Made by a program: the position numbers and the translations under genes | The notes under the pieces: model-generated | What the model was told of the DNA's origin: nothing | The model's database searches: none | Seen by the model: only the letters and a program-made list of their open reading frames with translations | In this document: positions 14,493-53,887 of the stretch, piece by piece | Layout: every line of letters begins with the position of its first letter | How positions within the stretch are numbered: position 1 is the first letter of the stretch | Assembly (NCBI RefSeq): GCF_009914755.1 | Contig: NC_060925.1 | DNA: 64,000 nt | DNA from: the human T2T-CHM13v2.0 reference genome, Homo sapiens | Direction: 5' to 3' (one strand)

Positions 14493-14554
14493 CTGTTGTG
14501 AACTTGGATAATTCTGTGGTTGACCTGGAGACCCTTCAAGCTCTCTATGAGAAT
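14493..14554 (+). CDS. FMN2: FMN2 coding exon (62 nt, probably exon 8), phase 1 in / phase 0 out: (A)[20 protein letters not shown]
   Basis: Acceptor ttcttcttttttttccacAG, donor AAT|GTGAGT; in frame with the next exon. Confidence 0.95.
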
Positions 14555-14860
14555 GTGAGTAATAGAAGGAATTTTATGTGTGAGTATATAATATGTACAC
14601 AGTACATGTCTATGTGCACATATAGGCTCTTTGTTTTAAGGTCCTCTAAAGAAATTTGATCCGAGTGTAGTGAATTTGCCTAAGTAGGTGTTTGTTACAA
14701 TACTTTCTAGGAACATATCAAACAAATGTGTGGTCTCATGGTTTGAAAAATTGTGAATCAAATCATATTGCATATGAGGTCATTCATTATTTTTTTAAAT
14801 TTAAATAATAGTACTGATGTGGGGGCTAACTTGAGCCAAGCATTGTTCTGTGCACTTCAT

Positions 14861-14904
14861 ACACACACACACACACACACACACACACACACACTCACAC
14901 ACAC
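14861..14904 (+). repeat. (CA)n microsatellite
   Basis: About 22 AC units with one interruption, ~300 bp downstream of the 62-nt exon. Confidence 0.95.
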
Positions 14905-14909
14905 TTAAA

Positions 14910-15680
14910 ATTTTAAAATATGTAACTGAAAAAGATTGAATACATTCATTCCAGGTGTATGTATTGAACATATTCATGCTGAGTTGATATACACATTGAT
15001 TACCACAATCAGATTAACACATCCATCACCACCCACACTTATATATAAGATCTCTAGAAGTTATTCATCTTATAACTGAAAGTTTGTACCTTTTGACCAA
15101 TATCTCCCTATTTTCCTACCTCCCACCCCTGGGCAACCACCGTTATGCTTTCTGTTTCTATGAGTTCAAGTTTTTTAGATTCCTTATTTGTCTTTCTGTG
15201 TCTAGCTTATTTCACTTAGCATTATGCCCTCCAGGTTCATCCATGATGTTGCAAATGGCAGGATTGCTTTCTTTTTTATGGGTGAATAATATTCCATGGT
15301 GTATATGTACCACATTTTCTTTATCCATTCATCTGTTGATGGACACTGGTTGGTTTTATATCTTGTCTCTTATGAGTAGTGCTGCAGTGAACATGAAAGT
15401 ACAGATATCTCTTCAACATACTTTTCATTTCCTTTGGATGTATTCCCAGAAGTAGAATTGCTGGATCATATGGTAGTTCTGTCTTTAATATTTTGAGCAA
15501 CACCTACACTGCTTTCTATTATGGCTGTACCAATTTACATTCCCATCGACAGTGTGCCAGGGTTCCCTTTTCTTCGCATCTTCACCAACACCTGTTATCT
15601 CTCTCCTAATAGCCTTGCCAACAGATGTGAAGTCATAGCTCACTGTGGTTTTGATTTGCATTTCTCTGATGAACTGTGAT
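14910..15680 (-). mobile_element. L1MA/MB 3' end
   Basis: Reverse L1 3' UTR and ORF2 tail; ORF 15321..15503 resembles the ORF2 C-terminus (ELPYDPAI). Confidence 0.9.
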
Positions 15681-15684
15681 CAAA

Positions 15685-15800
15685 TGCTATTATTATCACC
15701 CCTGTTTTACATGAGGAAAGTTAGAGAGGTTAGATGACTTACTCAGGGTCACATAGCTAGTGTTGTGATATAGCTGGGGTTTAGTTCATTCTGCCTGTTT
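15685..15800 (-). mobile_element. MIR SINE
   Basis: ctgttttacatgaggaaagttagagaggttagatgacttactcagggtcacatagctag. Confidence 0.75.
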
Positions 15801-16982
15801 CTCTATACTGCTACAGTTTATTTCACTAGGTGGCAGGACATTTAGCTTTTGTTATGTAGTACTTTTTTTTTTTTTTTTTTTAACAAAGGTGGTAGAGAAA
15901 GGGAGTAAGGTATTGAAGGAGAATAACCATAGCACGATATAGTCAGTGCTATTGGGAAGTGTGATATGAGAGATGTCTTTAGCTAGAATGTGACATTAAA
16001 TAATATTGATTCAAGTAGTAATAAAGCAGGTTGTTTTCAGTGCTTTTGATTATATTTAAGGTAAAGTCTCAGTGTGGTCCTATTTTGGGTCTAATATCTT
16101 TGAGTGCTTTTTTTTTTTTTTTTTTTTTTTTACTTTATTTCTGTTCTTGCCTTTGATCTGCCTGGTATTTAAGCCTCTGCTCTTTGGGGCATGGCCTTAG
16201 TTGGTCCTTAACTTTTCTGTCTCAAGTCAAATAATTCTTGGCTCTGGGGAGACCCATGTGGTGGGCAGGATGCAGACTCTGTTCCTTGATCACTCCCTTG
16301 AGGACTGTGTATTCAACCTGCTCATCCACTCTTGAGTTTGGTTTTTTTTTTTTAACATATGTTATATGGTGGTCTCATCTGTGAGATTGAGACCGATGTA
16401 AGACAAAATATGTCTCATGGTGCATTGTACAGAATCTGTGGGCCAAGTGTAGAATTGGTACCCATTAAGCATGGTGAGCATAAGCATTCAGTGAAACTGA
16501 GTCAGAAACAAAGATTGAGAGGGAAGCTTTCAGTGATTTATTATACAGTTGTCACTATGCAAAGGGAAAACTGGAAAAAGTAAATCGTGTGTTTAGTATA
16601 TTCACATTCCAATGAAATTGGTATTTAAAATATAACCATTGGGAGGTACAGAGAGTTTTCATTTCTCTTGAGTCTTTCATACTAACCCTCTTCCAACCAG
16701 GAGGGCCATATGGAAGAAAGGAGGAAATACTAGAGGAAAGTAATTTCTTCAGCAGGTCATAATGATTTAAGATGTTGGTGTGTGTGTATCTATCTATCTT
16801 GCACATATATATTACATATATACATTTGGTGTATACATGGTGTGTGTGTGTATCTATATGTGTGTATGTGTATCTAGGAATGAATGTCTTATTTACACTT
16901 GATGTATTTATGTGTAGAAATATACCCAGAAAATACAGAACATTGAATGTTTATTTTATGATGGTTTAGAATATTTTATTTG

Positions 16983-17284
16983 GGCTGGGTGTGGTGGCTC
17001 ATGCCTGTAATCCTAGCACTTTGGGAGGCCAAGGCGGGAGGATCACGAGGTCGGGAGTTCGAGAACAGCCTGGCCAACATGGTGAAACCCCGTCTCTACT
17101 AAAAATACAAACATAAGCCAGGCATGGTGGCCCGGGCACGTGTAATCCCAGCTACTCGGGAGGCTAAGGCAGGAGAATTACTTGAATCTGGGAGGCGGAG
17201 GTTGCTGTGAGCCGAGATTGCATCACTGCACTCCAGCCTGGTGACAGAGTGAGACTCCATCTCAAAAAAAAAAAAAAAAAAAAA
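16983..17284 (+). mobile_element. AluS (Sg/Sc-like)
   Basis: Full Alu, long A tail, 15-bp TSD agaatattttatttg (16968-16982, 17285-17299). Confidence 0.97.
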
Positions 17285-51690: not shown

Positions 51691-51938
51691 TGTACGTGTG
51701 TGTGTGTTGTCAAATTAATACAGATATTCATGCAATATTCTTTCATTGAGCATCTATGGAATGTGGACACTGCTCTTCCAAAATCGAATAATTCATAGTC
51801 CTTCCTTGGTACACCAGCAGCATATGATTTTTTTATTTTTATAATTGTTCAAATGCTCATGTGTATGATACACATTTTCATAGAAGTATCTACTATAGAG
51901 AGCTGATAAATTACATTTGTTAAAAAAAAAATGCTGAA

Positions 51939-52046
51939 GCCGAGTGCAATAGCATGAGCCCGTAATCCCAGCTACTTGGGAGGACTTTTCAAGGCCAACC
52001 TGGGCAATACAGTGAGAGCCCTTCTCAAAAAAAAAAAGAAAGAAAA
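51939..52046 (+). mobile_element. FLAM-like Alu monomer with internal deletion
   Basis: gtaatcccagctacttgggagg...aggccaacctgggcaatacagtgaga plus A tail. Confidence 0.8.
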
Positions 52047-53003
52047 GCCCTTTTCTTAACCTATGGTAATTCTTCAATACTCAGCAACTGCTTGTTGGAG
52101 TGAAACAACTTTTGCAAATAACATTGAAATCTATAGCATCAATATCATATTTAAATTATAGAAATGAACTGGAAATAGATTCTAGTGATCATATATAAAT
52201 AAGAGATTATTTGTGGGACTTTTTTGGTATCAGTTTATATATCTTATTCAATCCTCTGTTAGGTTAAATTTCATTAATTTAAATAATCAAGAGGTAATCT
52301 AAAATAAAAATTTAAATATGTAATCAAGAAATACGTTTTTAAAATAGTTTCACTTGTACTCAGAAGAGCTATACAAAGTCTTCCTGAATTGGTTCTTTCT
52401 CTGTAAAACAAATGTAACTATATTTATTCCTTAGTACTATTTATAGACCTCCATGGACAGAGCTGTTACTTTGATCACTTAGAATTTTCTCTCAGCATGC
52501 CTAGTTTTGTTAATTGATTCAGGTGCTGCCAACCGTTTCATTGAATTACAAGTTGGGAGAGAGAAAGGAAGTCAAGTTGCTTAAATCATTTTACAAGCAA
52601 ATCCTGTCTAATGAGGGATATCTCTAATAGCTACATTACTGACTCATGTCAAACTTGATTATAAAGAGGTTTTGCTCTTTTTACAAATATAGAAAAAATC
52701 GTGGTTATATTAAACATTCCAGAGAATGTAGTTTGTATCATAGGGTTTGTTTTTAAAGTAAAATATATACTTGAGCTCTCAAATTCAGATTATCTACTAC
52801 TACTTTGGAACAATACAAAAAAAGAGTAAAATAAAAATTAATGCGCCTAAATAAACCAGAAAGGAGGTGAAAAGGTATTTTTGAAGTGTGTTAGATATGA
52901 AACAATTTTACCTTTTTTTAAATAGAAATATCCACATTGTCTTATTTATAACCACATGAGTGTTAACTCCTCAAATCTCAATTGCTGATATAACAAATTA
53001 TAA

Positions 53004-53069
53004 TATTGGAATTGTTAAAAGCTCCCCTTTACTTAGTATTGGAATGGTTAAAAGCTCCGCTTTACTTAA
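53004..53069 (+). repeat. 33-bp tandem duplication
   Basis: tattggaattgttaaaagctcccctttacttag / tattggaatggttaaaagctccgctttacttaa (3 mismatches). Confidence 0.92.
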
Positions 53070-53544
53070 AATGATACTTAGCTTTTTTATTTCCCTAATC
53101 TATATGCTAATGAGCCTCAATCAAACTTACTGTTGGAGTGGTATCTGTTAGTCCAGCTATATATCAATGCTAAATTATTTCTTTTAATATAGTAGTTTTA
53201 AAACATAAAAAATTATCAAACAAAAACAATAAAAACACAAAATAATAAAATATACAAGACATGAGCTAAATTTCTAATTGAGGGGGGTAACAGTTGGAAA
53301 GTATTTACAGTTCAGACTTTGCCCCTAAATAGCTGTGCTAAGATTGGAACACTGGGGAGAAAAATCTTTTAAGCCACCAAACTCCTTAGACACAATGGCC
53401 AAGACAATCCAAAATGTAAAATTTCACATTTCATTCCAAATGTTCTCATGTATATACATGAATTCACTAGAATCTTTTTTGGTAACACTTTATATTTAAT
53501 TAGTTAAAAAATATATTGTCACTGACTTTGGTCTTTCTGCCTAG

Positions 53545-53604
53545 GACAATAGCAGAAGCCTTTTGTCATATATTGTTTCGTATTATCTCCGAAATTTTGA
53601 TGAG
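53545..53604 (+). CDS. FMN2: FMN2 coding exon (60 nt, probably exon 12): DNSRSLLSYIVSYYLRNFDE
   Basis: Acceptor tctttctgcctAG with upstream ctgac branch-like motif, donor GAG|GTAAGA. Confidence 0.95.
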
Positions 53605-53766
53605 GTAAGACAATTTTTACATATAGTCATATTCCATTATTCTTTATTCGTTGGATGATTTGGCAGTACTTTTTGTTGTTGTTTTTGTTTTGGACATACC
53701 TGCTATTATTCTTTTTTATATTGATAACCAATTTCTTTAAATATGATGGGGTTTTTTGTTCATTAG

Positions 53767-53887
53767 GATGCTGGAAAAGAACAGTGCCTCTTTCCACTGC
53801 CAGAACCCCAGGACCTTTTTCAGGCCTCACAGATGAAGTTTGAAGATTTTCAAAAAGATCTCAGAAAACTGAAGAAAGACTTGAAAG
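53767..53887 (+). CDS. FMN2: FMN2 coding exon (121 nt, probably exon 13), phase 0 in / phase 1 out: [40 protein letters not shown]
   Basis: Acceptor ttttttgttcattAG, donor AAG|GTAACT; FMN-family PLPEP motif. Confidence 0.95.

What the first reader, a model, noticed from the sequence alone, without database searches (positions are those of the whole stretch)
14493..53887. Six-exon FMN2 block would back-splice into a 612-nt circle with an endless, stop-free FH2 reading frame
Seen: exon lengths 62+92+130+147+60+121 = 612 = 204 x 3. The last exon ends with one spare base (TTG AAA G|gt) and the first begins with two (ag|CT GTT GTG). A back-splice from 53887 to 14493 therefore makes GCT (Ala) and re-enters the native frame, ...[15 protein letters not shown]..., with no stop anywhere. 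In-frame ATGs exist (GTTATGC at 50285, TACATGA, CAGATGA). The flanking introns are long (>14 kb, >10 kb) and hold opposite-orientation Alus: 10441(-) with 55520(+)/59958(+), and 9057(+) with 56863(-). Established: flanking inverted Alus promote back-splicing, and stop-free circles of length 3n can undergo rolling-circle translation. From memory, unverified: a circFMN2 (hsa_circ_0005100) is described mainly as a miRNA sponge and seems to match this block. Inference: it could encode concatemers of a 204-aa FH2 fragment with the GNYMN 'post' but no N-terminal 'lasso', a possible dominant-negative or scaffold for FMN2 dimers. The reciprocal linear skip would also be in frame.
Basis: partly seen in the sequence, partly recalled or inferred. 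Interest (0 to 1): 0.85.

Follow-up and report, generated by a model that had tools for sequence, protein, structure and literature searches.

The report
Known circFMN2 with stop-free frame
The six FMN2 exons in this window are the already catalogued 612-base circular RNA circFMN2, and its endless reading frame is an arithmetic by-product shared by over 40% of coding-exon blocks, with no evidence found that it is translated.

Summary
The six exons total 612 nt (3 x 204), all have AG/GT borders, and the circle has no stop in the native frame and three in-frame ATGs.

The block is the known circRNA hsa_circ_0005100 (circFMN2). One paper gives a 612-bp spliced length, and its junction siRNAs match the predicted back-splice exactly. 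Divergent qPCR primers from a second paper map to exon 13 (+) and exon 8 (-).

The endless frame is not special. It follows from both flanking introns being phase 1. On chr1, 43.8% of contiguous coding-exon blocks are 3n, and 44 of 136 in FMN2. One study reports that 14% of human circRNAs carry host-frame rolling-circle ORFs.

The five Alus are real. However, inverted pairs are no denser between introns 7 and 13 than with intron 8, and one pair better fits an exon 9-13 circle.

One lap covers only about positions 103-293 of the 372-position FH2 model. It has the GNYMN motif but is not a complete subdomain.

No searched paper reports circFMN2 translation. Low interest.

The parts
14493..14554 (+). 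FMN2 exon 8 (62 nt). Its 3' splice site is the back-splice acceptor, and it begins with 2 bases of a split codon.
   Evidence: AG|CT border and frame. Exon numbering from NM_020066.5. The reverse qPCR primer of PMC9396189 maps to 14525-14545 (-).
48734..48825 (+). FMN2 exon 9 (92 nt)
   Evidence: AG/GT borders, in frame. No Pfam hit on its own as a 30-aa piece.
48997..49126 (+). FMN2 exon 10 (130 nt), FH2 model positions 149-191
   Evidence: Pfam FH2, E 2.8e-8. Weak match to DAAM1 chain 2z6e_A residues 167-205, E 0.14.
50261..50407 (+). FMN2 exon 11 (147 nt), FH2 model positions 193-239. Holds the GNYMN motif, the basic KLKDVK stretch, and in-frame ATGs at 50285 and 50324.
   Evidence: Pfam FH2, E 6.1e-16. 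Matches DAAM1, mDia1 and FMNL3 FH2 chains. ATGs.
53545..53604 (+). FMN2 exon 12 (60 nt)
   Evidence: AG/GT borders, in frame. No Pfam hit on its own as a 20-aa piece.
53767..53887 (+). FMN2 exon 13 (121 nt). Its 5' splice site is the back-splice donor, and it ends with 1 spare base. In-frame ATG at 53833.
   Evidence: G|gt border. Weak FH2 match to model positions 265-293, E 0.027. The forward qPCR primer of PMC9396189 maps to 53802-53822 (+).
9057..9345 (+). Alu in intron 7, 5.1 kb upstream of exon 8
   Evidence: Two 7SL-like halves. Used as the blastn query.
10485..10773 (-). Alu in intron 7, the nearest one upstream of exon 8 (3.7 kb). Pairs with the 55520 (+) Alu at 76% over 342 nt.
48229..48548 (-). 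Alu in intron 8, ending 186 nt before exon 9. A competing partner for the Alus of intron 13, at 84-85% identity.
55525..55776 (+). Alu in intron 13, the nearest one downstream of exon 13 (1.6 kb)
56894..57105 (-). Alu (partial, 212 nt matched) in intron 13
59969..60231 (+). Alu in intron 13

Best explanation
The block is FMN2 exons 8-13. Joining the exon 13 donor (window 53887) to the exon 8 acceptor (14493) gives the known 612-nt exonic circular RNA hsa_circ_0005100 (circFMN2). Long flanking introns (36.8 and 21.6 kb) with inverted Alus plausibly help the two sites meet, but this is inferred and the pairs are not specific to this circle. The endless reading frame is an automatic by-product. 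Both flanking introns interrupt codons at phase 1, so the length is 3n and the native coding frame closes on itself. It is most likely not a dedicated coding device. If ribosomes do load, one lap encodes the middle half of the FH2 domain. That piece is cut through its knob, three-helix bundle and post, so repeats of it would most likely misfold and be degraded rather than act on FMN2 dimers (inference).
For: Identity.
- Published coordinates, a 612-bp spliced length, and junction siRNAs that match the computed junction exactly.
- Independent divergent primers in exon 13 (+) and exon 8 (-), giving a 139-nt amplicon across the junction, with reported RNase R resistance.
- A third paper speaks of circFMN2 fragments '459-612 nt'.

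By-product.
- Introns 7 and 13 are both phase 1.
- 43.8% of chr1 coding-exon blocks, 44.1% of six-exon blocks and 44 of 136 FMN2 blocks are 3n.
- PMC9242994 reports that 14% of human circRNAs have host-frame rolling-circle ORFs.

Fragment.
- FH2 model positions are 75-101 for exon 7, 149-191 for exon 10, 193-239 for exon 11 and 265-293 for exon 13, out of 372.
- The published topology interleaves bundle helices 6, 11 and 12 with post helices 7-10 and 13.
- Rolling-circle products of two of three tested circRNAs were rapidly degraded by the proteasome.

Start sites.
- No in-frame ATG has both Kozak positions.
- The two IRES-like hexamers named in the text of PMC9242994 are absent from the circle.
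Against: - The circle is reported as mainly cytoplasmic, where translation could occur.
- PMC9242994 finds rolling-circle ORFs over-represented among circRNA peptides, and sees translation start from internal coding sequence without a dedicated IRES.
- DRACH motifs number 21 in the circle against 13.2 +/- 3.1 in mononucleotide shuffles. This is a mild excess that could support m6A-driven initiation, but coding sequence was not controlled for.
- My claim that the fragment cannot fold rests on linear mapping to a profile plus a published topology, not on a model. I could not submit the spliced protein to the structure tools.
Confidence: 0.72

Rival explanations
1. circFMN2 is translated round and round from an in-frame ATG into concatemers of a 204-aa FH2 fragment. 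These bind the lasso of full-length FMN2 through their post and act as a dominant-negative or a scaffold.
For: - The circle is 3n, stop-free, has three in-frame ATGs and gives 23.3 kDa per lap.
- It is reported as cytoplasmic and RNase R-resistant.
- The fragment holds the GNYMN motif. All residues of that motif take part in dimerisation, and it lies in the post that the partner's lasso encircles.
Against: - No report of translation in the searched library, and FMN2 does not occur in the main text of PMC9242994.
- The unit covers only about 103-293 of 372 FH2 positions. It probably lacks post helix 13 and bundle helices 11 and 12, so an intact lasso-binding post is doubtful.
- ATG contexts are weak.
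- Concatemer products tend to be degraded.
Confidence: 0.05
2. The circle is occasionally translated, but the product is short-lived noise with no function.
For: - PMC9242994 reports pervasive low-level circRNA translation, with most products of low abundance because of rapid degradation.
- The open frame and ATGs are present.
Against: There is no direct evidence of any ribosome association for this circle.
Confidence: 0.2
3. The circle works as a non-coding RNA, as published: a sponge for miR-1238, miR-145-5p or others, or a binder of the CNBP protein.
For: Knock-down and reporter claims in PMC7286986, PMC9396189 and PMC9334069.
Against: - PMC7286986 is retracted for image recycling.
- The qPCR primers of PMC9334069 map to FMN2 exons 4 (+) and 2 (-), not to this circle.
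- I did not examine stoichiometry or miRNA site counts.
Confidence: 0.2

Closest known systems
hsa_circ_0005100 (circFMN2)
   Same: It is the same object. The span is 39.4 kb (39,408 in hg19, 39,395 here), the spliced length is 612 nt, and the exon 13 to exon 8 junction matches the published siRNAs and primers.
   Different: Nothing structural. The papers I read treat it as non-coding, and none of the passages I saw mentions its open frame.
Rolling-circle (infinite) ORF circRNAs, for example circPSAP, circPFAS and circABHD12 in PMC9242994, and those tabulated in PMC11724312
   Same: The length is a multiple of three, there is no stop in the host frame, and there are in-frame starts.
   Different: Those examples have junction peptides and tagged-reporter ladders. 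circFMN2 has no translation evidence that I could find.
Mouse formin (Fmn) circular transcripts, described as an 'mRNA trap'
   Same: A formin-family gene that gives abundant exonic circles, which compete with the linear mRNA (a review passage citing Chao et al. 1998).
   Different: A different gene and different exons. That circle carries the start codon and is described as not translated. This one is internal to the FH2 coding region.
Monomeric core FH2 fragment of mDia1 (PDB 1v9d)
   Same: An FH2 piece without the lasso. It is matched by exon 11 and described as monomeric in PMC2948013.
   Different: The 1v9d chain is 340 residues, and exon 11 aligns to its residues 132-172. By extrapolation the 204-aa unit covers only about residues 32-233 of it, so it is a much more truncated piece.

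Membership tests
Exonic circular RNA (back-spliced) | Canonical acceptor (AG) before the first exon and donor (GT) after the last exon | tested here: met
   ag|CTGTT at 14493 and AAAG|gt at 53887.
Exonic circular RNA (back-spliced) | A back-splice junction detected in RNA and resistant to RNase R | not testable with these tools
   Reported in PMC9396189. Its primers are divergent, in exon 13 (+) and exon 8 (-). The siRNAs of the retracted PMC7286986 span the junction.
Exonic circular RNA (back-spliced) | Complementary repeats in the two flanking introns | tested here: met
   14 inverted matches of at least 100 nt between introns 7 and 13. They are not specific: there are 27 and 34 with intron 8.
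Rolling-circle ORF circRNA | Circle length divisible by three, with one frame free of stops | tested here: met
   612 nt, 0 stops over two laps in the native frame.
Rolling-circle ORF circRNA | A start codon in the open frame | tested here: met
   ATGs at 50285, 50324 and 53833, all in weak or partial Kozak context.
Rolling-circle ORF circRNA | Evidence of translation: junction footprints, junction peptides or a concatemer ladder | not testable with these tools
   No report in the searched library. The supplement lists of PMC9242994 were closed.
Functional FH2 domain | A complete domain: lasso, linker, knob, three-helix bundle and post | tested here: not met
   One lap covers about model positions 103-293 of 372. 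Exon 7, which maps to positions 75-101, lies outside the circle.
Functional FH2 domain | The GNY/FMN motif of the post | tested here: met
   Present in exon 11 and aligned to the same motif in DAAM1 and mDia1 chains. Its role is described in PMC555941.

The most novel reading that the evidence does not exclude
In tissues rich in FMN2, such as brain or oocyte, circFMN2 is translated round the circle into repeats of a 204-aa mid-FH2 unit. The GNYMN-bearing surface of those repeats captures the lasso of full-length FMN2, so the circle tunes actin nucleation by its own host gene. The published knock-down phenotypes would then be protein effects rather than sponge effects.
Probability: 0.04. Interest if true: 0.6.

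Novelty: already known. Interest (0 to 1): 0.18.

Why it matters
If the circle were translated, it would be a self-encoded modulator of an actin nucleator, and the 'sponge' literature on circFMN2 would need re-reading. As it stands, the value of this check is mostly corrective:

- An endless frame is the expected state of over 40% of coding-exon blocks and is not a signal in itself.
- Flanking inverted Alus here do not discriminate between alternative circles.
- Papers using the name circFMN2 measure at least three different junctions.
- Trypsin would cut exactly at the K|A junction, so ordinary proteomics would not see a junction-spanning peptide without a missed cleavage.

Tried and rejected
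- **Exon 7 against solved structures.** I searched the 29-aa exon 7 piece to place the conserved knob isoleucine and got no match at E up to 10. The placement of that residue just outside the circle therefore stays an inference. It rests on the Pfam positions, the residue numbers in PMC2948013 and linear extrapolation.

- **Exon 10 against solved structures.** It gave only weak hits. The top one, CLIC1 at E 0.07, I take for chance. DAAM1 at E 0.14 is in register with the exon 11 match.

- **Exon 14 against Pfam.** No hit, so the C-terminal limit of the domain was not mapped exon by exon.

- **Paper search for FH2 + lasso + post + GNYMN.** It found nothing. A looser search gave the topology papers.

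- **Rfam on the whole window at gathering threshold.** No match.

- **Structure prediction of the 204-aa unit or a concatemer.** Not attempted. The spliced protein is a joined sequence that the tools do not accept, so there is no fold model.

- **The search for homologous proteins.** Not used. Single exons are too short to reach full-length formins under its length rule.

- **Other FMN2 circles.** I could not look up circBase or circAtlas for them, for example an exon 9-13 circle.

- **Rejected idea: the Alu layout explains why exons 8-13 in particular circularise.** One search shows equal or denser pairing with intron 8.

- **Limits of the chr1 background.** It used only 'select' mRNAs (1,994 genes, of which 1,640 have at least one wholly coding internal exon). 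It did not merge alignment-gap pieces, except for FMN2.

- **Limits of the Alu census.** It used one window Alu as the query at E 1e-5, so old or partial copies can be missed.

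
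Full report
**What is in the sequence.**

The window holds six FMN2 exons, which are exons 8-13 of the 18-exon transcript NM_020066.5.
- Their lengths are 62, 92, 130, 147, 60 and 121 nt, 612 in all. Each is bordered by AG and GT.
- Read in the native frame, the concatenated exons have no stop. Two laps of the circle have none either. The other frames have 11 and 13 stops per lap.
- By the T2T coding pieces, the intron before exon 8 and the intron after exon 13 are both phase 1. That is the whole reason the length is 3n and the frame closes.
- The junction codon is G+CT, Ala.
- Three ATGs lie in the open frame, at 50285, 50324 and 53833. None has both a purine at -3 and G at +4.
- Ten more ATGs all lie in one other frame and open ORFs of 4-47 aa.
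- One lap is 204 aa and 23.3 kDa.
- The exon 7 to exon 14 skip would also be in frame. None of the 3 RefSeq FMN2 mRNAs makes it.

**Is it more than chance?**

No. Any run of coding exons bounded by introns of equal phase is 3n and stop-free in the native frame.
- Among chr1 'select' mRNAs, 83,238 of 190,187 contiguous blocks of wholly coding internal exons (43.8%) are 3n.
- For six-exon blocks the figure is 4,084 of 9,256 (44.1%).
- 1,537 of 1,640 genes have at least one such block, and FMN2 has 44 of 136.
- With 204 codons, a few in-frame ATGs are expected.

**What it is.**

- PMC7286986 (passages read; the paper is marked retracted, and the retraction notice cites image recycling) gives hsa_circ_0005100 as hg19 chr1:240458121-240497529, with a spliced length of 612 bp. 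That span is 39,408, against 39,395 here.
- Its three siRNAs match the computed circle across the exon 13 to exon 8 join with no mismatch.
- PMC9396189 (passages read) is independent. Its circ_FMN2 forward primer maps to 53802-53822 (+) in exon 13 and its reverse primer to 14525-14545 (-) in exon 8. The pair is divergent and gives 139 nt only across the back-splice.
- That paper reports RNase R resistance and a mainly cytoplasmic location.
- So the circle is a known, named RNA.

**How it is probably made.**

The flanking introns are 36,815 and 21,587 nt. The two upstream ones each show two 7SL-like halves.

The full census with one window Alu as query gives 22 hits, 21 of them at least 100 nt long:

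| Intron | (+) | (-) |
|---|---|---|
| Intron 7 | 1 | 3 |
| Intron 8 | 6 | 5 |
| Intron 13 | 3 | 3 |

With 4 Alus in intron 7 and 6 in intron 13, 12 of the 24 cross pairs are inverted. That is what random orientation gives.

Inverted matches of at least 100 nt:

| Comparison | Matches |
|---|---|
| Intron 7 x intron 13 | 14 |
| Intron 7 x intron 8 | 27 |
| Intron 8 x intron 13 | 34 |
| Within intron 7 | 14 pairs |
| Within intron 8 | 24 pairs |
| Within intron 13 | 10 pairs |

- The nearest flanking pair, 10437-10775 with 55529-55846, is 76% identical.
- The Alu at 48229-48548 (-) ends 186 nt before exon 9 and pairs with 55520-55841 (+) at 84%. That would favour an exon 9-13 circle of 550 nt.
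- Alu pairing is therefore a plausible helper (inference from the established model) but does not explain the choice of exons 8-13.

**What one lap would encode.**

Single-exon translations place the block on the 372-position Pfam FH2 model:

| Exon | Model positions | E-value |
|---|---|---|
| Exon 7 (outside the circle) | 75-101 | 1.8e-4 |
| Exon 10 | 149-191 | 2.8e-8 |
| Exon 11 | 193-239 | 6.1e-16 |
| Exon 13 | 265-293 | 0.027 |

- So one lap spans about positions 103-293, roughly half the domain.
- Exon 11 aligns to the GNYMN region of the DAAM1, mDia1 and FMNL3 FH2 structures.
- PMC555941 (passages read) describes the order as lasso, linker, knob (helices 1-5), a three-helix bundle (helices 6, 11 and 12) and a post (helices 7-10 and 13), with GNY/FMN at the end of helix 7.
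- PMC2948013 (passages read) places the two actin-binding sites at Ile845 in the knob and Lys994 in the lasso/post of mDia1. It calls the earlier lasso-less fragment monomeric.
- By linear extrapolation, the unit lacks the lasso, the linker, the first part of the knob (probably including the conserved isoleucine) and the late helices of both bundle and post. It keeps GNYMN and the basic stretch after it.
- This is inference, since I could not fold the spliced protein.
The post itself is probably incomplete.

**Is it translated?**

- PMC9242994 (passages read) reports that 14% of human circRNAs carry a host-frame rolling-circle ORF.
- It also reports that such ORFs are over-represented among junction peptides, and that two of three tested products were quickly degraded by the proteasome.
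- PMC11724312 (passages read) reviews infinite ORFs as a known class.
- FMN2 does not occur in the main text of PMC9242994.
- The search for hsa_circ_0005100 found 17 papers. circFMN2 + 'open reading frame' found 16, of which 15 were listed, all reviews or network papers by title.
- FMN2 + 'rolling circle translation' found 4 reviews. In the two I opened, the terms are unrelated.
- None of these gave a report of circFMN2 translation.
- The two IRES-like hexamers named in that paper's text are absent from the circle. DRACH motifs are mildly over-represented, 21 against 13.2 +/- 3.1 in simple shuffles.

**Verdict.**

However, the object is already known and its endless frame is an ordinary by-product of exon phase. 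The dominant-negative idea is untested and structurally doubtful. Interest is low. The practical points worth keeping are the tryptic K|A site at the junction and the inconsistent use of the name circFMN2.

Noticed in passing
G000 chr1:239601736-239601755 (+) and 239536590-239536609 (-), outside the window: The 'circFMN2' qPCR primers of PMC9334069 map to FMN2 exon 4 (+) and exon 2 (-). They do not match the 612-nt circle at up to 3 substitutions. They are divergent and would report an exon 4 to exon 2 junction (exons 2-4 total 371 nt, not 3n), although the paper speaks of a 612-nt RNA.
   Followed up: yes
Literature; upstream of the window: PMC13679284 shows a 'circFMN2' at chr1:240206799-240258032 and equates it with hsa_circ_0005100. 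Its span is 51.2 kb against 39.4 kb for hsa_circ_0005100, so it cannot be the same circle in any assembly. I did not check which assembly the paper used.
   Followed up: partly
G000 chr1:239621261-239621293 (FMN2 exon 5, outside the window): The RefSeq alignment splits exon 5 into two pieces with 33 unaligned bases between them, which is 11 codons and in frame. This looks like a length difference in this exon between T2T and the RefSeq mRNA. The aligned coding pieces sum to 5,100 nt.
   Followed up: no
window 48229-48548 (-) with 55520-55841 (+): An Alu ending only 186 nt before exon 9 pairs at 84% with the first Alu after exon 13. This arrangement predicts a competing exon 9-13 circle of 550 nt.
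   Followed up: partly
window 26747-27309 (intron 8) with chr1:239678367-239678939 (intron 7, upstream of the window): An inverted match of about 570 nt at 74% that is longer than an Alu, probably another interspersed repeat family. It was the top-scoring intron 7 x intron 8 pair.
   Followed up: no
window 9109-9330 and 10599-10731: Sub-threshold Rfam matches to mir-1268, mir-3135 and mir-1285 fall inside the two Alus. All score far below the gathering thresholds. They most likely reflect sequence these miRNA families share with Alu, not genes.
   Followed up: no
the 612-nt circle (exons at 14493-53887): All 10 out-of-frame ATGs sit in the same frame (+1 relative to native) and none in the third frame. 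DRACH motifs number 21 against 13.2 +/- 3.1 in mononucleotide shuffles. Both may be codon-composition effects.
   Followed up: no
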